DNA of 24,000 nt, from the NCBI GenBank assembly GCA_000317655.1, contig CP003940.1:1845547-1869546 (forward strand), in the 5' to 3' direction. The DNA comes from Cyanobacterium stanieri PCC 7202 (lineage in GTDB: Bacteria; Cyanobacteriota; Cyanobacteriia; Cyanobacteriales; Cyanobacteriaceae). The notes under the pieces were generated by a model. That model did not search any database and had not been told where the DNA came from. It saw nothing but the letters and a program-made list of their open reading frames with translations. This document shows positions 5,465 to 13,156 of the stretch, piece by piece. The position numbers and the translations under genes are program-made. The first letter of the stretch is position 1. Every line of letters begins with the position of its first letter.

Positions 5465-5900
5465 TATCTAATATGGACTTATGGAGTAAAGAAAATTCAA
5501 TAAAAAAACAATCTTTTATCTTCATACAAAAGATTAATTTTTTTGTTGTTGGTGTTATGAAATGGGTTTTTATTTACTTACATATATTATTGTAACACTT
5601 ATGAATATTTGATTAATAACTTTATAAAAACAATACATTTTTTGATAAAAAAAGATTAAATACCTAGGTAAAATCAAGATTGAGACGGATATTTATCTTA
5701 TTGATTAATATAAAAAATAAGTATTTATATGTAGATATAATTTTATTTATAATTAACCATTGATCCCATCACTAGAACCTCACTGACAATAATTAATGGC
5801 TTTGTCAAGGAATGATAATGATCTTAAGAAAACATCAAGGTTCAGGTAAATTCGGGGTTAGTGGTCATAGGATAGTGATATTCAAGCACACAATTTGATT

Positions 5901-7364
5901 ATGAACTCCACAACATCCTCACTATTCCGACAAATCACTATGGATATTCCTCCCCTATCAGGAAAAGAAAAAGAGATAGAAAAGATTGTCAATGATCAAG
6001 AAACGGTTTTTTTAAACAAAACCGATATTAACTTAGAAGAAAAAAAAGCTCTGTTTGCCTGTGCTTTACACATGCACCAACCTACAATTCCAGCAGGATA
6101 TAAAGGGGAATTAATTTGTAATTTGCAACAGATGTTTGAGCATCAAGGGGAAGGGGATAATCATAACGCTTCTGTTTTTGCTTGGTGCTATAGTCGTATG
6201 GGGGATTTTATTCCTGAATTGGTGGCAAATGGTTGTAGCCCTCGCATTATGTTGGATTATTCGGGTAATCTTTTATGGGGATTACAACAGATGGGTAGGG
6301 AAGATATTTTAAATAATCTTCGTAAAATTACTGTAGATCCCACTTATCAACCTTATGTAGAATGGTTGGGTACGATGTGGTCCCATGGGGTGATTCCTTC
6401 TACACCTATTCCCGATATTAAGTTACATATTCAGGCATGGCAACATCATTTTATGGCTATTTTTGGGGAGGATGCTTTAAGACGGGTGAAGGGTTTTTCT
6501 CCTCCTGAGATGCACTTACCAAATCATCCTGATACTTTGTATGAATATATTAAGGCTTTAAAGGAGTGTGGTTATCGTTGGTTGTTGGTGCAGGAGCATT
6601 CGCTGGAAAGGCTGGATGGACAAGGATTGCACCATGATGATAAGTATATTCCCAATCGTTTGATGGCTAAAAATTCTCGGGGAGAGGTTATCAGTATTAC
6701 GGCGTTAATCAAAACTCAGGGTTCGGATACTAAGTTGGTGGCACAGATGCAGCCTTACCATGAGGCGAAAACCAAAGATAAGTTATCGGTAAATGGGGTG
6801 ATGATTCCTCCTTGTGTGACGCAAATTGCGGATGGGGAAAATGGGGGCGTGATGATGAATGAGTTTCCTCGGGATTTTCCTCCTCTATGGTATGACATTA
6901 AAAATTCTGATGTGGTGGGGGTAAATGGTACTGAATATCTGGAGTTGTTGGAGGCTTCTGGGGTGTCTGAGGATGATTTTCCCGTATGTCAGGCGGTGGG
7001 CCAACATAAGATATGGCAAAGGGTGGGGGATAATATTACTCCTGAAGGGGTACAAGGTGCGATCGCCTTTTTAACGGAAAATGATCATCAATTCCATACC
7101 GAAGGCGCTTCGTGGACTAATGATTTAAGTTGGGTAAAGGGTTATGAGAATGTATTACAACCCATGAATCAATTAAGTGCTTTATTTCATCAGAAATATG
7201 ATGTTTTAATAGAAGAAAGTCCTGAAATTACTAAAAGACAAGATTATCAAGAAGCCCTTTTATACAATCTTCTTTTGCAAACCAGTTGTTTTCGTTACTG
7301 GGGACAAGGCACATGGACGGATTACGCTAAACAACTATATCAGCGAGGATTGGAAATTCTCTGA
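5901..7364 (+). CDS. Glycoside hydrolase family 57-like protein
   Basis: CALHMHQPT (GH57 region I, HxHQP), PPEMHLP (candidate nucleophile Glu), IADGENGGVMMNEF (region IV, DGE..G-like) and QTSCFRYWGQG (region V-like). I prefer ATG 5901 to the TTG at 5895 used in the ORF track. Confidence 0.65.
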   Translation: MNSTTSSLFRQITMDIPPLSGKEKEIEKIVNDQETVFLNKTDINLEEKKALFACALHMHQPTIPAGYKGELICNLQQMFEHQGEGDNHNASVFAWCYSRMGDFIPELVANGCSPRIMLDYSGNLLWGLQQMGREDILNNLRKITVDPTYQPYVEWLGTMWSHGVIPSTPIPDIKLHIQAWQHHFMAIFGEDALRRVKGFSPPEMHLPNHPDTLYEYIKALKECGYRWLLVQEHSLERLDGQGLHHDDKYIPNRLMAKNSRGEVISITALIKTQGSDTKLVAQMQPYHEAKTKDKLSVNGVMIPPCVTQIADGENGGVMMNEFPRDFPPLWYDIKNSDVVGVNGTEYLELLEASGVSEDDFPVCQAVGQHKIWQRVGDNITPEGVQGAIAFLTENDHQFHTEGASWTNDLSWVKGYENVLQPMNQLSALFHQKYDVLIEESPEITKRQDYQEALLYNLLLQTSCFRYWGQGTWTDYAKQLYQRGLEIL

Positions 7365-7398: not shown

Positions 7399-8000
7399 TT
7401 AAATCGATTCGATGGCTTTTCTTTCTTGGGGGGTTAATTCTCTGGTTTGTCCAACATCTAAGTTATTAATGGTAAGCTGAATTTGGGGGGTAAGGGCGAT
7501 CGCTTTTCGTACTAATCTTAGGGTAGGATGGTTTACTGAGGCTGTCATTCTCCTTACCTGTCGATTTCTGCCCTCGGTAAGGGTTAATTCTATCCAAGAG
7601 GTGGGAATGTTCTTACGGTAACGAATAGGGGGATTTCTTGGGGGTAATAGAGGTTCTTTTTCGAGGTGACGGGCGATCGCTCTTTTGGTTTTTTCCCCTT
7701 AATAATTACCCCATTTTCTAGCTTTTTTAAAGACTCTAAAGAAGGGATATTTTCTACCTGTACCCAATAGGTACGAGGATGGGCAAAAGAGGGATCGCAA
7801 AGACGATGTTTAACCCTCGGATTATCCGTTAATAATAACAATCCCTCACTATCTAAATCTAATCTGCCCACTGAATAAATATGGGGTATATCAATATATT
7901 TTTTGAGGGTTTCTCGCTCTGAAGCATGGGGACTATCATCAGTGAATTGACAAAGAACATTATAGGGTTTATAAAATAAAATATAGGTGTATTTTTTCAT
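7399..8000 (-). pseudogene. rluE: RluE/RsuA-family 16S/23S rRNA pseudouridine synthase, interrupted by a one-base frameshift in a poly-A run
   Basis: The N-terminal ORF 7590-8000 carries [10 protein letters not shown] and [16 protein letters not shown] (catalytic Asp motif). The -1 frame from the A6 run (plus-strand T6 at 7689-7694) stays open for 97 codons to TAA at 7399-7401. It encodes [60 protein letters not shown]..., the expected family C-terminus including [10 protein letters not shown]. Confidence 0.8.
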
Positions 8001-9213: not shown

Positions 9214-9918
9214 TTATTGTACTCCCACAGAACGACCACCAGAACCAAACACCAGTAAACTATTTTGTGCAAAAGGTTCCCAACCCACTTCAAAACCATT
9301 ACTAACCGCCTTTTCCCTAGCAGCACGAAAAGCAGGAAAACTGTCAGGACGAACTATAAAAGCAATATACTGCTGAGTAGAATCCAAATTTTGTAAAACT
9401 TGAGCAAATTGCGAATTATCCGCCCTTAACTCTTGATTATCTTCCCCTTCAGCATTAGGATTTTGCTCATATCGCAACGCCCCTCCCTCAGTAAAAGTAA
9501 CAGTATATTGACCATTATCCACTAAAAAATTACTTAAACGACGACGCACGGCTGAGATACAATTATTATAAATATTAATTTCATTAATATAAGATTGATA
9601 GGCACGTTGAGAATTAATGCGAGGTGGTTCGGGAGTATAACAAGTTGGCAAACTAGACTGTAATTGATCGATTTGTGTCTCTATTTCAGGGTCACTAATA
9701 TAAAATAATTGATTGTTTCTAAGCTCAAAAAAAACACCTTGTTTTGTGGTTTCTGCCCTCAAAGGAGTTTTTATTATTCTTTCTGCTTCTACGGTGAGTA
9801 AACTTACAAATAAGCCAATAAACATTAACACACCGACAGTATTTGTTAATATATCAAGGAAAGAATCTAAATTTTGATTAGGATAATTTCTTTTACGAAT
9901 AAGGCGTTTTCTATTCAT
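9214..9918 (-). CDS. ExbD/TolR-like single-pass membrane protein (long form; TM Asp retained)
   Basis: The N-terminus NQNLDSFLDILTNTVGVLMFIGLF aligns with TolR/ExbD (N-I-V-P-L-L-D-V-L-L) and the conserved Asp is present. The C-terminal block YIAFIVRPDSFPAFRAAREKAVSNGFEVGWEP is paralogous to the neighbouring 150-aa protein and follows the ExbD periplasmic-domain pattern. I prefer ATG 9918 to the TTG at 9945. Confidence 0.55.
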   Translation of the reverse strand: MNRKRLIRKRNYPNQNLDSFLDILTNTVGVLMFIGLFVSLLTVEAERIIKTPLRAETTKQGVFFELRNNQLFYISDPEIETQIDQLQSSLPTCYTPEPPRINSQRAYQSYINEINIYNNCISAVRRRLSNFLVDNGQYTVTFTEGGALRYEQNPNAEGEDNQELRADNSQFAQVLQNLDSTQQYIAFIVRPDSFPAFRAAREKAVSNGFEVGWEPFAQNSLLVFGSGGRSVGVQ

Positions 9919-9934
9919 AATATATTTGCTCAAT

Positions 9935-10387
9935 TTATTCCTCAAATCTAAGGGTTAAACCTTCATCTATCGGTTCATAACCAATATCAATATTTCGCGC
10001 TTCAATCAAATCTCTAACCTCATAAAATGTCTCTAACCCTGTAGGTCTTAAAATCACGATAACATATTCACTATCTCGATTATTTTCTACTTGCCTAATA
10101 AGCCTGAGAAGAGGAGAATTACTACTACTTAGTTGATTTCTCGGCACAAATTCCTCACTAGGATGGATGATAATTCCATCTTCTCGACATTCAATATAAC
10201 GGGGGGTTTTAGAAATGTTTTGCCCCTCCTCTGTTTGCCCAATTACGGTTACTTCAGAACTGCTTTCGATGCTTTCTGTACTAATGACAATAATCAATAA
10301 AATTAGTGTGCCAATGGTACAGGCTAAGACAGATAGGAAAGGAAATAACTCCATTTCTATTTTATTAGAGCGAAATCTTCTACGCAT
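9935..10387 (-). CDS. ExbD/TolR-like single-pass membrane protein (short form; TM Asp replaced by Ser)
   Basis: 150 aa. KIEMELFPFLSVLACTIGTLILLIIVI aligns with TolR KSEINIVPLLDVLLVLLLIF, with Ser at the Asp position. The periplasmic part (YIECREDGIIIHPSEEFV...YVIVILRPTGLETFYEVRDLIEARNIDIGYEP) follows the ExbD/TolR pattern. Confidence 0.6.
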   Translation of the reverse strand: MRRRFRSNKIEMELFPFLSVLACTIGTLILLIIVISTESIESSSEVTVIGQTEEGQNISKTPRYIECREDGIIIHPSEEFVPRNQLSSSNSPLLRLIRQVENNRDSEYVIVILRPTGLETFYEVRDLIEARNIDIGYEPIDEGLTLRFEE

Positions 10388-10405
10388 AATAAATGCTTAA
10401 AATAT

Positions 10406-11800
10406 TTATTGATCAATTTGTTCTACTAAACGGACAACTCTTGGTTTACTCAAATCTTTTATAACTGGTTGTAAAAGGGTAATTTGTTCTTGAATGAGAC
10501 TCAGGGAGTTTTCCATTTTTCCTGCACTTTCGAGCGCCCTTACAATGCCATTAAAGCTATTTTCTAATTTTGATAATTCGGCTATTTGTTCACTAGATTT
10601 TTGAAGAGAATCAATTTTTTTATCTAATAGAGAAACTATATTTTCTAATTGATTCTTAAAAGTGCCAATTTGCTGCTCTAGTTCTGTTTTACTAATATTA
10701 TTTTGTTCTTTTATTTGCGTAATTATGGTTTTAATGTCATCTACTAATGTAGCATTAAAATTTTGTTGCTCTTGATAGGATTGGATAATTTTTTCCCTAT
10801 CGGTGAGAATAATTTGATTAACCTCTTTGATTCCCTCCACCAATTCCGACTCTTGGCTTTGAATTTGGTTAAACTGATGGAGAAATTCCTTCAGTAAATT
10901 TTGGGCGGCTTCTCTGGCATACATTTCTGCGGGTTGAATCAATTCTTCAGGAGTGGGCAAAGATTCTTTGATAGCTTGATTGATGGTTTTGCTGATGGTG
11001 TCTTTATCTAAAGAAGGAGAAGATTTCGATTTTTTGTCTCGAAATCTGGGCAAAAGTTTGTCGTTGATGAATATATCAATTTGCAAAAGTAATTGGGATT
11101 CGAGTCTTTCTACCAAGACAAGGGGAATCATTACCACCACACTCAAAAGCAATGCCAAAAGGGTGGTGTCAAAAGCAACAGCTAAACCGCTAGTAACTGT
11201 ACCGATACCATCTCTAATTTGGTCAACTTCTGAGGCACTATCTAAAAAACCAGAAAATCCGCTTACGGCTTGACTAATACCCAATACTGTACCGATAAAA
11301 CCTAAAAGAGGTATTGCCCAAACCAAAATACGGGGAAAACTATAAGAAGACTCTGAGGCACTGAGGTAAAAGGATGAGTCGTCAAGGGCTAACTCGCTGG
11401 AGGCTTTTCTGCTTCCTGAATGTATGTAAGCACTTAATACCCTCGATAGTCTATTATCTACCAATTTTCCTGATTCAGAAAAATATTCATACATTTGTTT
11501 GATTTGAACTGATTTTGGATTATCGAAGGAGATATGGCTAGGTATGTCGATTTTCCTTAAGGATTGTAATTCGGTTCTGATTTTGGTTAATTTATCAAGG
11601 CTACTGGTGATGACAAAACAGGAGATAAATACCACTAAATATTGAGTTATTCCTCTATCTATCAGTAATACTCCTAAATAGGTATCTCTAAAGGGTAATA
11701 GTAATGTATATATAGCTACGGTTAGCAGGGTGGAAAATAGTAAGACAAGGGGAAGATTAATATCTAATTCTTGACGATTATTGACAATGGATTTGGGCAT
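10406..11800 (-). CDS. MotA/TolQ/ExbB proton-channel family protein with a long C-terminal tail predicted to form a coiled coil
   Basis: 464 aa with four hydrophobic segments at roughly aa 16-37, 47-68, 155-178 and 200-228. LLGFIGTVLGISQAV and GLAVAFDTTLLALLLSVVVMIPL match the channel-family signature helices. Residues from about 235 to 464 are Q/E/K/I/L-rich with a heptad-like character. Confidence 0.75.
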   Translation of the reverse strand: MPKSIVNNRQELDINLPLVLLFSTLLTVAIYTLLLPFRDTYLGVLLIDRGITQYLVVFISCFVITSSLDKLTKIRTELQSLRKIDIPSHISFDNPKSVQIKQMYEYFSESGKLVDNRLSRVLSAYIHSGSRKASSELALDDSSFYLSASESSYSFPRILVWAIPLLGFIGTVLGISQAVSGFSGFLDSASEVDQIRDGIGTVTSGLAVAFDTTLLALLLSVVVMIPLVLVERLESQLLLQIDIFINDKLLPRFRDKKSKSSPSLDKDTISKTINQAIKESLPTPEELIQPAEMYAREAAQNLLKEFLHQFNQIQSQESELVEGIKEVNQIILTDREKIIQSYQEQQNFNATLVDDIKTIITQIKEQNNISKTELEQQIGTFKNQLENIVSLLDKKIDSLQKSSEQIAELSKLENSFNGIVRALESAGKMENSLSLIQEQITLLQPVIKDLSKPRVVRLVEQIDQ

Positions 11801-11847
11801 TGGTGAGCGGATAATAGTTTTTCAAGTTACAGTTTAGCTTATTCAAC

Positions 11848-11875
11848 AATTGATAATGGATAATTGATAATGGAT
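11848..11875. repeat. Perfect 14-bp tandem duplication AATTGATAATGGAT x2
   Basis: Read directly: 11848-11861 and 11862-11875. It lies between the motA-like start (11800) and the TnpB element end (about 11882). Confidence 0.9.
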
Positions 11876-11881
11876 GATTAA

Positions 11882-11930
11882 CTTGACACTCCCACCGACA
11901 AATCAAAGATTATGTCGGGGGATTCTTACT
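11882..11930 (-). mobile_element. Putative right-end terminal stem-loop of the second TnpB element (likely omega-RNA 3' scaffold)
   Basis: Minus strand reads TAAGAATCC-CCCGAC-ataatctttgattt-GTCGGTGGG-AGTGTCAAG. The layout and flanking motifs are the same as at 345-379. Confidence 0.5.
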
Positions 11931-13156
11931 TCACAGACACTTAACTAGCTTAGTCAAATTACTTTGGCTAAACCCCGTCAGTACGTCTCCACAAGCATTT
12001 TGACTCACGGTATGTCCTACCGCAATTAATCCTCTATTTCTAATGACTTTTGCACTCACCACATCTCTTGGTGCGGTATAACCACAAAACTGGCAACTAT
12101 GTATTCTCTGAGTCAAATGCTTTTTGCCAGTGTGATTCCCACAGTTACTACATTCTTGAGATGTTCCGTTTTTGTCAACTTTCAGATAAAACTTACTTCG
12201 TTTCCAGCACACATATGGCAAAATTTCATTAATAAACTGCCCTATACCCGAGTCTAAAGATTGCTTTCTCACAATCCCTCTACTCCAAGAAACAAAATTT
12301 ATATCCTCCACAAAAATGTTATCGGTTAAATTACAGAGGTAATTAGCTAACTTAAAATGCCAATCACGGCGAGTGTTAGCTACTTTTTCATGAATTTTTG
12401 CTATCTTGTTTTGGAGTTTTAACCAATTATTAGAGCCTTTAATCTTATGTTTCAAGCATCTTTGTAGCAATTTAAGCTTACTTTGTGCTTGTAACAAAAA
12501 CTTAGGGGCTTTGATTAACTCTCCTCTATCCGTAGCAATAAATGATTCTATCCCTGCATCAATTCCTAAACTTGTTTTTCCCACAGGTGCATCATAGCAA
12601 GATTCTTTAGATTGAAAAGCAATCATCAAATAATAACCTGTAGCTTTTTTCACAATTCGAGCTTGTTTAGGCTCAAACCCAGTGGGATAATCCCTAGATT
12701 GTTTAATCCTTAACCAACCTAATTGTGGTAACTTAATCCTACCTTCAGCTAAACAATTTTTTTAGCATGGCAGGGGAAAACAAAACTTTTCATTTGCTTT
12801 TTAAATCTAGGAAAGCCATAACCCTTAGACTTCATATCGGAGAATGCTTTATCTAAAGTTTTCAGAGTTTGTTGTAATACTTGAGCATTAACAGATTTTA
12901 AATCTGGGTTAGTTTTCTTGGCAATGGTTAAGTTTTTTGCTTGGTTGTTATAACTAGGATATGGTGCGTTAGCGGGGATTATATACTCAGCAAATAATGA
13001 ACAACGATCAACCAGTGATTTACGGCTGTTATACCAGTGCTTACGTTCAGCTAAAGCGTAATTATAAACCGACTTACAGACACTCAAAATGTGCTCCACT
13101 TCTTGAGTTTGTTGTCTATTTAGTTTTAGCCTGAACTGGTAAGTTAAGGTAATCAC
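11931..13156 (-). pseudogene. tnpB: IS200/IS605-family TnpB (IS1341-like, no tnpA), full length but split by a one-base frameshift in a poly-A run
   Basis: The N-terminal ORF 12749-13156 (MITLTYQFRLKLNRQQTQ...) ends at TAG just after an A7 run (plus-strand T7 at 12757-12763). The -1 frame continues NCLAEGRIKLPQLGWLRIKQSRDYPTGFEPKQARIVKKATGYYLMIAF into ORF 11931-12653. RuvC residues (GIDAGI, FVEDINF, PRDVVSAKVI) and the CxxC...CxxC zinc ribbon (CSNCGN...CQFCGY) are intact. Confidence 0.85.

What the first reader, a model, noticed from the sequence alone, without database searches (positions are those of the whole stretch)
9214..11800. Three-gene MotA/ExbB-like plus two divergent ExbD/TolR-like module with a long tail that looks coiled-coil: candidate uncharacterised 5:2-type ion-driven motor
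Seen in sequence: three same-strand genes are separated by only 16-18 nt.
- Gene A (464 aa) has four hydrophobic segments, with the MotA/TolQ/ExbB channel signature in the last two (LLGFIGTVLGISQAV; GLAVAFDTTLLALLLSV). A tail of about 230 aa follows, Q/E/K/I/L-rich and heptad-like.
- Genes B (150 aa) and B' (234 aa) are paralogous single-pass proteins. Their N-termini align to the TolR/ExbD TM helix and their C-termini share the block Y(V/I)x(V/F)I(L/V)RP...(Y/W)EP.
- B' retains the proton-relay Asp (FLDIL). B has Ser at that position (FLSVL).

Established knowledge: MotAB, ExbBD, TolQR, the Myxococcus AglRQS gliding motor (one A-type plus two different TolR-like subunits) and the anti-phage ZorAB (MotA-like with a long cytoplasmic coiled-coil tail) all belong to the 5:2 rotary motor class.

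Inference: this trio combines an AglRQS-like subunit composition with a ZorA-like tailed A subunit. It may form an asymmetric B/B' heterodimer with a single functional Asp. No TonB, no OmpA/peptidoglycan-binding domain and no ZorC/D-like genes are adjacent, so the output of the motor is unknown. From memory, Synechocystis literature lists a third, three-gene exbB-exbD-like cluster (sll0477-0479). Orthology to that cluster is untested here and its mechanism is, to my knowledge, undefined.
Basis: partly seen in the sequence, partly recalled or inferred. Interest (0 to 1): 0.7.

Follow-up and report, generated by a model that had tools for sequence, protein, structure and literature searches.

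The report
Tailed ExbB-like motor, two odd ExbD-like partners
Three adjacent genes of Cyanobacterium stanieri encode what looks like an unstudied membrane ion-driven motor, with a ring protein carrying a long cytoplasmic helical stalk and two unequal axle proteins of which only one keeps the proton-carrying aspartate; the module is conserved across cyanobacteria and several other phyla, but its job is not established.

Summary
Three minus-strand genes, A (10406-11800, 464 aa), B (9935-10387, 150 aa) and B' (9214-9918, 234 aa), lie 18 and 16 nt apart. All quoted motifs are present.

- **A** passes Pfam's MotA_ExbB threshold. Its AlphaFold2 (AF2) model matches TolQ, ExbB, ZorA and MotA structures. 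Its 230-aa tail is helical, including one roughly 125-residue amphipathic helix whose hydrophobic period is 3.6 residues, not 3.5.
- **B and B'** are true paralogues (hhalign 97.7%). No Pfam, NCBIfam or PDB sequence hit exists for either. A broadened B profile reaches ExbD/TolR (92%, P 5.6e-7) and places B Ser19 and B' Asp22 on ExbD Asp25.
- **The Ser/Asp asymmetry** and an acidic "FDTT" motif in A are conserved from cyanobacteria to Planctomycetota, Myxococcota and Verrucomicrobiota.
- **Conservation.** The trio keeps its gene order in 62 of 80 loci and has no conserved neighbour.
- **Heterodimer hint.** Secreted single-chain B-domain plus B'-domain fusions exist, which points to a B/B' heterodimer.

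My verdict is a divergent, self-contained 5:2-class motor and a new variant of a known kind. It is not a Zorya system and not a canonical ExbBD pair.

It is probably the counterpart of the iron-starvation-induced Synechocystis sll0477-0479 operon, but I did not test that orthology directly. Stoichiometry and motor output remain inferred.

The parts
10406..11800 (-). Gene A, 464 aa: MotA/TolQ/ExbB-family ring subunit with a long C-terminal tail (AFZ47640.1 / K9YMK5 of Cyanobacterium stanieri PCC 7202)
   Evidence: ORF. Pfam PF01618 at 30.3 bits, above the cutoff of 22.9. Foldseek hits to TolQ, ExbB, ZorA and MotA. Exact-sequence look-up.
11597..11755 (-). A residues 16-68: first two hydrophobic helices, giving a MotA-like four-TM layout
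   Evidence: Hydropathy segments 16-34 and 50-68. AF2 helices 16-34 and 51-83.
11117..11368 (-). A residues 145-228: channel helices TM3 and TM4. They carry T171 (aligned with ExbB T148 / TolQ T145), T213 (aligned with TolQ T178) and the family-specific acidic residue D211 in the 'FDTT' motif
   Evidence: Extent of the Pfam match. hhalign against E. coli ExbB and TolQ. T171, T212 and T213 are identical and position 211 is D or E in 80 of 80 homologues across phyla.
10409..11098 (-). A residues 235-464: C-terminal tail, rich in Q, E, K, I and L. It is cytoplasmic by homology with every known A subunit
   Evidence: Composition and periodicity. AF2 helices 266-279, 284-408 and 416-450. The cytoplasmic location is inferred, not shown.
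10577..10951 (-). A residues 284-408: one continuous amphipathic helix of about 125 residues (about 19 nm), the core of the putative stalk
   Evidence: AF2 model, pLDDT 75-88 over this stretch. Hydrophobic period of 3.6 residues, power 148 against a median of 4.5.
9935..10387 (-). Gene B, 150 aa: single-pass remote ExbD/TolR homologue. An invariant Ser (S19, codon 10331-10333) sits where ExbD has Asp25
10283..10348 (-). B transmembrane helix LFPFLSVLACTIGTLILLIIVI
   Evidence: Hydropathy. 'FPFLS.LACTIG' is invariant in 64 sequences.
9214..9918 (-). Gene B', 234 aa: paralogue of B that retains the TM Asp (D22, codon 9853-9855). Its periplasmic alpha/beta domain ends in FGSGGRSVGVQ
9796..9867 (-). 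B' transmembrane helix DSFLDILTNTVGVLMFIGLFVSLL
   Evidence: 'NLDSFLDILTNTVGVLMF' is invariant or nearly so in 65 sequences. The counterpart outside cyanobacteria is LDSLLDTMTN.
9448..9687 (-). B'-specific insert, residues 78-157, with two invariant cysteines (C93, C120). It is absent from B
   Evidence: Gap in the hhalign alignment of the B and B' families. Invariant columns. Modelled at pLDDT near 90. A disulfide between the two Cys is inferred.

Best explanation
The trio encodes a self-contained, vertically inherited inner-membrane ion-driven machine of the MotA/ExbB/TolQ (5:2) class.

**Shown**
- A has the ExbB/TolQ channel helices, including the conserved threonines T171 and T213, plus a family-specific acidic residue (D211).
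- A has four TM helices and a 230-aa helical tail.
- B and B' are paralogous single-pass proteins remotely homologous to ExbD/TolR.
- B' carries the Asp at the proton-relay position (D22), while B carries an invariant Ser (S19).
- The three genes stay together in this order across cyanobacteria and in Planctomycetota, Myxococcota, Verrucomicrobiota and Gemmatimonadota.

**Inferred**
- Five A subunits surround one B plus one B', forming a heterodimeric axle with a single protonatable Asp.
- Proton flow through the A/B' interface drives rotation or a cyclic conformational change of the ring relative to the axle.
- The periplasmic ExbD-like domains of B and B' pair with each other and hold onto the cell wall or an envelope partner.
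- The five 3.6-periodic tail helices bundle into a cytoplasmic stalk of about 19-30 nm that carries the output inward, as in ZorA.

**Physiology (inferred).** It is probably the counterpart of Synechocystis sll0477-0479. That operon is induced by iron starvation and linked to Fur, and it is counted among three ExbB-ExbD sets needed for inorganic iron uptake. A role in iron-limited envelope energisation is therefore the most likely one.
For: **Ring subunit A**
- Pfam MotA_ExbB is above its gathering score.
- The AF2 model hits TolQ (9ddm), ExbB (6tyi, 5sv0), ZorA (8vvn, 8qyd) and MotA (6ykm), with probability 0.87-1.0 and target-normalised TM-score 0.32-0.57 for these entries.
- 'GFIGTVLGI' aligns with ExbB and TolQ 'GLFGTVWGI'.
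- T171, D/E211, T212 and T213 are kept in 80 of 80 homologues.

**Axle subunits B and B'**
- B versus B': hhalign 97.7%, E 1.7e-12.
- Broadened B profile versus a 79-sequence ExbD/TolR profile: 92.3%, P 5.6e-7. The alignment is collinear and puts Ser19 on ExbD Asp25. The reversed control gives 0.4%.
- Pfam ExbD is the most frequent weak hit among B homologues, in 10 of 64.
- The B' model is confident in the periplasmic part, with strand-strand-[insert]-helix-strand-helix-strand order.
- B has Ser in 69 of 70 loci where the motif was found, and B' has Asp in 59 of 63 B'-type ORFs (the motif could not be read in the other 4). This includes the non-cyanobacterial loci.
- At least 12 of the top 150 cluster representatives are signal-peptide plus B-domain plus B'-domain fusions.

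**Module and tail**
- The trio is intact in 62 of 80 loci, with no conserved neighbour.
- The tail is helical with a 3.6-residue period.
- The ZorA tail is a right-handed pentameric coiled coil (PMC11946911).

**Iron link**
- sll0477-0479 form one transcriptional unit induced 6.7-fold without iron (PMC4195498).
- They are iron-responsive in two strains, with a Fur box in PCC 6803 (PMC8634477).
- A review states that three ExbB-ExbD complexes are required for iron uptake (PMC7133116).
Against: - B and B' have no Pfam, NCBIfam, PADLOC or PDB sequence hit of their own.
- The narrow B profile reaches ExbD at only 46-49%, and the B' profile not at all (P 0.1).
- Foldseek of the B' model finds no ExbD/TolR. 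TolR 5by4 ranks 41st at E 0.8.
- Stoichiometry, the heterodimer and rotation were not modelled or measured.
- A single-Asp axle may not support continuous rotation.
- Several loci hold A alone (Thermosynechococcus) or A plus B only (Gimesia).
- Orthology with sll0477-0479 rests on matching gene order, annotation and a Synechocystis-genus MAG (L054), not on the PCC 6803 sequences.
- No iron-box signal is conserved upstream of orthologues.
Confidence: 0.55

Rival explanations
1. It is simply a third TonB-coupled ExbB-ExbD set (ExbB3/ExbD3/ExbD4). It energises TonB-dependent outer-membrane transporters through a TonB encoded elsewhere, and the tail and the second ExbD are decorations.
For: - The Synechocystis literature names sll0477-0479 exbB/exbD3/exbD4 and groups them with the canonical sets for iron uptake.
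- They are induced by iron starvation.
- The A model is closest to TolQ and ExbB.
Against: - No tonB or TBDT gene is linked in any of 80 loci.
- B and B' fail the ExbD model.
- A conserved 230-aa tail and the Ser/Asp asymmetry have no counterpart in ExbBD.
- The module is kept in a Prochlorococcaceae MAG (L069). From my own knowledge, that lineage generally lacks TonB-dependent uptake.
- The Synechocystis data, as I could read them, treat the three sets together.
Confidence: 0.2
2. B and B' do not share one complex. A forms two alternative complexes, A5B'2 (active, two Asp) and A5B2 (Asp-less, inactive or regulatory), or B acts as a plug or assembly factor.
For: - All solved 5:2 motors have homodimeric axles (established knowledge).
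- Gimesia loci have A plus B only.
- One Prochlorococcaceae locus has Asp in both proteins.
Against: - B (Ser) and B' (Asp) are co-conserved as adjacent genes across phyla.
- Single-chain B-domain plus B'-domain fusions recur.
- Paired heterologous TolR-like genes next to one tolQ-like gene are reported elsewhere, for example AglQS and PVC clusters (PMC12204202).
Confidence: 0.15
3. It is a Zorya-like anti-phage sensor in which the motor detects envelope damage and the tail signals to cytoplasmic effectors.
For: - Weak hits to ZorA models that include part of the tail: NCBIfam ZorA_2 at 29.8 bits and PADLOC ZorA1 at E 6e-8.
- Foldseek hits to ZorA structures.
- A long helical tail with non-heptad periodicity.
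Against: - The score is far below the NCBIfam cutoff of 100.
- There is no peptidoglycan-binding OmpA-like domain in B or B'.
- No ZorC, ZorD, ZorE or any other conserved effector gene is nearby.
- Similarity falls with taxonomic distance (85% within the species, about 50% in Geminocystis, about 44% in Nostocales, 36% in Thermosynechococcus). That fits a vertically inherited core gene, not a defence island.
Confidence: 0.04
4. It is not a rotary motor. It is a gated ion channel or envelope-stress sensor built from a MotA-like scaffold, and the single Asp and Ser form a static ion site.
For: - Only one Asp per presumed axle.
- An extra acidic ring in A.
- No identifiable rotor or output partner.
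Against: - The threonine ring and helix geometry typical of rotating 5:2 motors are conserved.
- Relatives of B carry long periplasmic coiled coils and Pro/Gly-rich spacers reminiscent of force transducers.
Confidence: 0.1

Closest known systems
ExbB-ExbD / TolQ-TolR (Ton and Tol motors; PDB 6tyi, 9ddm, 8odt)
   Same: - The A channel helices align, with the GTV.GI motif and the threonine ring.
- These are the best structural matches to the A model.
- B aligns collinearly with ExbD, including TM register and the order of periplasmic secondary structure.
   Different: - A has four TM helices and a 230-aa tail.
- Two unlike axle proteins replace one, and only one of them has the Asp.
- B and B' fail PF02472.
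- A has an extra conserved TM acidic residue (D211).
- No TonB, TolA, TolB or Pal gene is linked.
ZorAB of the Zorya anti-phage system (PDB 8qyd, 8vvn)
   Same: - A MotA-like ring subunit with a long C-terminal helical tail.
- The ZorA tail is a right-handed pentameric coiled coil, and the tail here has a non-heptad 3.6-residue period.
- Weak profile hits extend into the tail.
   Different: - The tail is about 230 aa (at most about 30 nm), against about 70 nm in ZorA.
- ZorB is a homodimer with a peptidoglycan-binding domain.
- Zorya needs ZorC/D, ZorE or ZorF/G, and none is present here.
- The distribution here looks like a core gene, not a defence island.
AglRQS gliding motor of Myxococcus xanthus
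   Same: One TolQ-like subunit plus two different TolR-like subunits encoded together.
   Different: From my own knowledge, AglQ and AglS are canonical TolR-family proteins that each carry the Asp, and AglR has no long tail. The trio here occurs in many unicellular cyanobacteria. No Glt-type partners are linked.
Synechocystis sp. PCC 6803 sll0477-sll0478-sll0479 ('exbB / exbD3 / exbD4')
   Same: - An ExbB-like gene followed by two hypothetical-protein genes in one transcriptional unit.
- A Synechocystis-genus MAG carries the A-B-B' trio (L054).
- This is probably the orthologous operon.
   Different: Orthology was not tested on the PCC 6803 sequences. The published work addresses iron regulation and uptake, not architecture, the tail, the Ser/Asp asymmetry or the cross-phylum distribution.
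tolQ-like plus paired heterologous tolR-like or TPH-vWA clusters of PVC bacteria and Proteobacteria (PMC12204202)
   Same: Uncharacterised 5:2-type motors with heterologous pairs of axle proteins, found partly in the same phyla.
   Different: Those pairs each keep the Asp and are linked to vWA or TPR genes. Here there are no vWA or TPR neighbours, and the periplasmic domain matches no Pfam family.

Membership tests
MotA/TolQ/ExbB proton channel family (PF01618) | Score at or above Pfam's gathering threshold | tested here: met
   30.3 bits against a cutoff of 22.9, residues 145-228. Most homologues are pre-annotated PF01618.
MotA/TolQ/ExbB proton channel family (PF01618) | Fold of the A subunit of solved 5:2 motors | tested here: met
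   Foldseek top 50 are almost all TolQ, ExbB, ZorA and MotA chains, with probability mostly 0.9-1.0 (lowest 0.87, MotA 6ykm). E-values are only 4e-3 to 0.2 and target-normalised TM-scores 0.32-0.57.
MotA/TolQ/ExbB proton channel family (PF01618) | Conserved threonines lining the pore in the last two TM helices | tested here: met
   T171 aligns with ExbB T148 / TolQ T145, and T213 aligns with TolQ T178. Both are invariant in 80 of 80 homologues.
ExbD/TolR family (PF02472) | Score at or above Pfam's gathering threshold | tested here: not met
   No hit for B or B' at E up to 1. Only 10 of 64 B homologues hit weakly, best E 0.0084.
ExbD/TolR family (PF02472) | Detectable homology by profile-profile comparison | tested here: inconclusive
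   Broadened B profile: 92.3%, P 5.6e-7, with a reversed control at 0.4%. The narrow B profile gives only 46-49%, and the B' profile gives P 0.1. Confident columns cover only the TM helix and the first hairpin.
ExbD/TolR family (PF02472) | Asp in the single TM helix at the ExbD D25 / TolR D23 position | tested here: inconclusive
   Met for B' (D22, invariant). Not met for B (S19, invariant).
ExbD/TolR family (PF02472) | Periplasmic domain with the ExbD/TolR fold | tested here: inconclusive
Zorya (ZorA/ZorB with ZorC/D, ZorE or ZorF/G) | ZorA model score above the curated cutoff | tested here: not met
   NCBIfam antiphage_ZorA_2 at 29.8 bits against a cutoff of 100.
Zorya (ZorA/ZorB with ZorC/D, ZorE or ZorF/G) | ZorB-type partner with a peptidoglycan-binding domain, plus adjacent effector genes | tested here: not met
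   No OmpA-like domain in B or B'. No PADLOC hit for B or B'. No conserved neighbours.
Ton system (ExbB-ExbD-TonB) | Functional coupling to a TonB protein | not testable with these tools
   No tonB in the window or in the flanks of 80 loci. The rest of the genome was not available.
5:2 rotary motor class | A5:B2 stoichiometry with the axle TM helices inside the pentamer | not testable with these tools
   Only monomer predictions were possible.
AglRQS-type gliding motor | One TolQ-like plus two TolR-family subunits, linked functionally to Glt gliding proteins | tested here: not met
   The subunit count matches. B and B' are not PF02472 members, and no gliding genes are linked.

The most novel reading that the evidence does not exclude
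This is an ancient, cross-phylum branch of the 5:2 motors with three distinctive features:
- an obligately asymmetric axle, with one Asp-bearing subunit and one Ser-bearing subunit;
- a compensating acidic ring (FDTT) in the pentamer;
- a ZorA-like cytoplasmic stalk.

On this reading it is a housekeeping motor whose output points into the cytoplasm, for example coupling envelope or iron status to an intracellular target, rather than towards the outer membrane. Its periplasmic B/B' domain pair would define a large protein family, absent from Pfam, that also exists as free secreted fusions.
Probability: 0.25. Interest if true: 0.8.

Novelty: new variant of a known kind. Interest (0 to 1): 0.62.

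Why it matters
Motors of the 5:2 class power flagella, gliding, TonB-dependent uptake, Tol-Pal envelope maintenance and Zorya defence. Each new branch has so far revealed a new way of using the proton gradient.

This branch is present in most cyanobacteria sampled here and in several other phyla. It has no Pfam model for two of its three subunits. It also combines features that are otherwise seen separately: a stalked ring as in ZorA, and two unlike axle proteins as in AglQS.

A conserved axle with a single protonatable Asp bears on an open mechanistic question, namely whether both Asp residues of the dimer are needed for stepping.

If the trio is the sll0477-0479 system, then part of what is called "ExbB-ExbD-dependent inorganic iron uptake" in cyanobacteria may rest on a machine quite unlike ExbBD. 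That is directly testable in a tractable model organism.

Tried and rejected
**Sequence and structure searches for B and B'**
- Single-sequence and family-profile searches of B and B' against PDB sequences gave nothing relevant.
- Foldseek of the full-length B' model against the PDB returned only low-probability noise. The TM helix and the insert probably spoil a global match.

**Building an ExbD/TolR comparison profile**
- jackhmmer with E. coli ExbD and TolR over all ORFs of the 80 loci found no canonical ExbD there.
- I therefore built the ExbD/TolR profile from a metagenome scan.

**Neighbours and relatives**
- A search for conserved neighbours found none beyond the trio. A response-regulator gene appears in 12 loci only.
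- Pfam scans of the non-cyanobacterial B and B' proteins showed only coiled-coil noise.

**Fur box**
- An ATTATC x3 array sits 45-78 nt upstream of A and is non-random (0.01 expected).
- The E. coli 19-mer matches only 11 of 19 positions, and orthologous upstream regions show no enrichment.
- I do not count this array as evidence of iron regulation.

**Literature and orthology**
- The primary Synechocystis paper (Jiang et al. 2015, PMC4303624) and the supplements of the transcriptome papers are not held.
- The phenotype of the trio alone, and direct orthology, could therefore not be checked.

**Zorya membership** was considered and rejected: score below cutoff, no effector genes, and a core-gene distribution.

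Full report
**1. What is in the sequence**

The finding lies on the minus strand. Gene A runs 10406-11800 (464 aa) and gene B runs 9935-10387 (150 aa). Gene B' occupies 9214-9918 (234 aa from the ATG). The B' ORF could start at a TTG at 9945, but the consensus N-terminus of 64 homologues matches the ATG start.

The gaps between genes are 18 and 16 nt. Hydropathy gives four hydrophobic segments in A (16-34, 50-68, 158-176, 212-230) and one each in B and B'.

An exact-sequence look-up identifies A as AFZ47640.1 / K9YMK5 of Cyanobacterium stanieri PCC 7202.

The neighbours are unrelated:
- a GT4 glycosyltransferase;
- a truncated pseudouridine synthase;
- two pieces of an IS605-family tnpB;
- TsaD, PsaF and GAPDH.

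There is no TonB, no OmpA-like domain and no Zor effector.

**2. Gene A**

A passes Pfam's MotA_ExbB model, with 30.3 bits against a cutoff of 22.9 over residues 145-228. It hits ZorA models only weakly: NCBIfam 29.8 bits against a cutoff of 100, and PADLOC E 6e-8.

An AF2 model built from a 66-sequence alignment has mean pLDDT 72.5. With Foldseek it retrieves almost exclusively A subunits of solved 5:2 motors: TolQ, ExbB, ZorA and MotA. For those chains probability is 0.87-1.0, E-values are a modest 4e-3 and upward, and target-normalised TM-scores are 0.32-0.57.

Alignment to E. coli ExbB and TolQ gives these correspondences:
- 'GFIGTVLGI' aligns with 'GLFGTVWGI', so T171 corresponds to ExbB T148 and TolQ T145.
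- T213 corresponds to TolQ T178.

These threonines, and an acidic residue two positions earlier (D211 in 'FDTT'), are kept in all 80 homologues examined, inside and outside cyanobacteria. ExbB and TolQ have no such residue at that position in these alignments.

**3. The tail**

The AF2 model gives helices 266-279, 284-408 and 416-450. Family-averaged hydrophobicity over 284-408 has one sharp spectral peak at 3.6 residues (power 148, median 4.5). Power at exactly 3.5 is at background level.

The tail is therefore a long amphipathic helix whose hydrophobic stripe runs almost straight. It is not a classical left-handed heptad coiled coil. [quoted passage not shown]

The tail here is much shorter. 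The 125-residue helix spans about 19 nm, and the whole tail would reach at most about 30 nm if fully extended.

Tail length is stable within cyanobacteria, at 250-278 residues after the FDTT motif. It varies elsewhere, with total protein lengths of 346-521 aa. That the tail is cytoplasmic follows from homology with all known A subunits and was not tested.

**4. Genes B and B'**

Neither protein matches anything in Pfam, NCBIfam, PADLOC or PDB sequences.

They are nonetheless true paralogues. Profile-profile comparison of the two families gives 97.7%, E 1.7e-12. B' equals B plus an insert of about 80 residues that contains two invariant cysteines.

Evidence on the link to ExbD/TolR:

| Comparison | Result |
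|---|---|
| Pfam ExbD among 64 B homologues | most frequent weak hit, 10 of 64, best E 0.0084 |
| 64-sequence B profile vs ExbD/TolR profiles | 46-49% |
| B profile broadened with 61 distant short relatives vs 79-sequence ExbD/TolR profile | 92.3%, P 5.6e-7 |
| Same broadened profile vs reversed ExbD/TolR profile (control) | 0.4%, P 0.16 |
| B' profile vs ExbD/TolR profile | P 0.1 |
| Foldseek of the B' model vs PDB | TolR 5by4 at rank 41, E 0.8 |

The confident columns in the 92% comparison cover the TM helix and the first hairpin. A relaxed alignment is collinear to the C-terminus. It places B Ser19 on ExbD Asp25. By the B/B' alignment, B' Asp22 falls at the same position.

The AF2 model of B' has pLDDT near 90 in the periplasmic part. 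Its element order is strand-strand-[insert]-helix-strand-helix-strand. From my own knowledge this matches the ExbD/TolR layout.

**5. The Ser/Asp asymmetry is a family trait**

Ser19 is invariant in 64 B sequences and Asp22 is invariant in 65 B' sequences.

Across the 80 genome loci:
- B has Ser in 69 of the 70 loci where the motif was found.
- B' has Asp in 59 of the 63 B'-type ORFs; the motif could not be read in the other 4.
- This includes Planctomycetota, Myxococcota, Opitutia and Phycisphaerae, where the motifs read FPFLSIL and LDSLLDTMTN.
- The one exception is a Prochlorococcaceae MAG (L069) with Asp in both proteins.

**6. Distribution and context**

All three proteins have hundreds of homologues in cyanobacteria. 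Similarity falls with taxonomic distance: 85% within the species, about 50% in Geminocystis, about 44% in Nostocales and 36% in Thermosynechococcus.

A scan of species-representative genomes found at least 555 loci encoding a relative of A. Of the 80 loci retrieved, 62 have A, B and B' in this order.

Loci outside cyanobacteria come from Gimesia, Rhodopirellula, Thermoguttaceae, Phycisphaeraceae, Myxococcota, Opitutia and Longimicrobium. There B and B' are longer (about 260 and 370 aa), with a coiled-coil stretch after the TM helix.

Some loci have A alone (Thermosynechococcus) or A plus B only (Gimesia). Clustering of all flanking ORFs found no conserved neighbour. The trio is therefore a self-contained module.

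**7. A larger, unannotated family**

An exhaustive profile search with B found 2951 cluster representatives at E up to 0.001. Two architectures stand out.

The first is a set of 500-970-aa proteins with this layout:
- the same N-terminal TM motif, with Ala or Ser at the Asp position;
- a long coiled coil;
- a B-type domain;
- a long Gly/Pro-rich spacer;
- a second weak B-type domain.

This layout recalls periplasm-spanning force transducers.

The second is at least 12 proteins with a signal peptide followed by a B-type and then a B'-type domain, and no TM helix. These fusions are the best available hint that the periplasmic domains of B and B' work as a pair. None of the ten multi-domain representatives scanned has a relevant Pfam domain.

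**8. Mechanism**

Shown:
- the family assignment of A;
- the paralogy and remote ExbD relationship of B and B';
- the helical tail;
- the conserved Thr ring, FDTT motif and Ser/Asp pair;
- the conserved gene order.

Inferred:
- an A5:B:B' assembly;
- proton flow through the A/B' interface;
- pairing and anchoring of the periplasmic domains;
- a five-helix stalk that carries the output inward.

One Asp per axle would allow proton-driven stepping at only one of the two half-sites. The invariant D211 ring in A may compensate, or the machine may cycle rather than spin. This is speculation.

The main rival is a plain TonB-coupled ExbBD paralogue, which I put at 0.2. Separate A5B2 and A5B'2 complexes get 0.15, a non-rotary channel or sensor 0.1, and a Zorya-like defence system 0.04.

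**9. Link to published work**

[quoted passage not shown] It is induced 6.7-fold by iron starvation (PMC4195498).

A later study calls them exbB/exbD3/exbD4. It reports iron-dependent regulation in two strains and a Fur box in PCC 6803 (PMC8634477). A review states that three ExbB-ExbD complexes are required for iron uptake (PMC7133116).

The gene order, the annotation pattern and the presence of the trio in a Synechocystis-genus MAG (L054) make orthology likely. I could not obtain the PCC 6803 sequences or the primary paper. Orthology and the trio-specific phenotype therefore remain untested here.

Two recent surveys of 5:2 motors and periplasmic force transducers do not describe this family as far as my term searches of them showed. 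One of them does report other tolQ-like genes with paired heterologous tolR-like genes in PVC bacteria (PMC12505986 and PMC12204202).

**10. Verdict**

The trio is a divergent branch of a known class of machines, so I rate it a new variant of a known kind.

It has been noticed in the Synechocystis iron literature, but its architecture, asymmetry, stalk and cross-phylum spread have not been described in what I could read. I score interest at 0.62. The output of the motor and its stoichiometry are the open points.

Noticed in passing
window 11931-13156 (minus strand): Two consecutive ORFs together make one IS605-family TnpB. ORF 12749-13156 holds HTH_OrfB_IS605, and ORF 11931-12653 holds OrfB_IS605 plus the Cas12f1-like TNB domain. 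The gene is therefore split or frameshifted. It sits directly upstream of gene A on the same strand.
   Followed up: partly
window 11845-11878 (minus strand), 45-78 nt upstream of the start of gene A: A direct array ATTATC-a-ATTATC-c-ATTATC with a fourth degenerate copy. Only 0.01 matches are expected by chance. ATTATC is the complement of the GATAAT hexamer of Fur boxes. However, the E. coli 19-mer matches only 11 of 19 positions, and upstream regions of orthologues show no enrichment.
   Followed up: partly
window about 11891-11921 (minus strand): An inverted repeat, CCCCCGACA...TGTCGGTGGG, lies just after the tnpB stop codon. It could be the right-end hairpin or guide-RNA region of the IS element, or a terminator shielding the trio from read-through.
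   Followed up: no
proteins P0381, P0384, P0387, P0390, P0401, P0415, P0465, P0477, P0491, P0499, P0500 and P0451: These are secreted proteins with a signal peptide and no TM helix that fuse one B-type and one B'-type periplasmic domain in a single chain. The domain pair therefore also exists outside any motor.
   Followed up: partly
proteins P0383, P0389, P0397, P0408, P0466, P0481 and about 40 others: These are 500-970-aa relatives of B with 'FPFLAVLLC', carrying Ala (or in some Ser) at the Asp position. They continue with a long coiled coil, a B-type domain, a very long Gly/Pro-rich spacer and a second weak B-type domain. None of the ten multi-domain representatives scanned has a relevant Pfam domain.
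   Followed up: partly
L069:9101-10344 (Prochlorococcaceae MAG): This is the only locus in which both axle proteins carry Asp in the TM motif (FSFLDIL and IMDVLANLVG). It is an exception to the Ser/Asp rule.
   Followed up: no
L065-L067, L071, L072 (Gimesia and relatives); L055, L056 (Thermosynechococcus): The Gimesia-type loci have A plus a 264-283-aa B (with Ser) but no adjacent B'. The Thermosynechococcus loci have A with neither B nor B' adjacent. The partners may be encoded elsewhere or be absent.
   Followed up: partly
window 5895-7364 (plus strand): A 489-aa ORF with no Pfam family at E up to 0.001.
   Followed up: no
window 7590-8000 (minus strand): A 136-aa ORF that matches positions 2-118 of the 152-position pseudouridine synthase model. 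It looks truncated, and its start overlaps the end of the glycosyltransferase gene by 4 nt.
   Followed up: no
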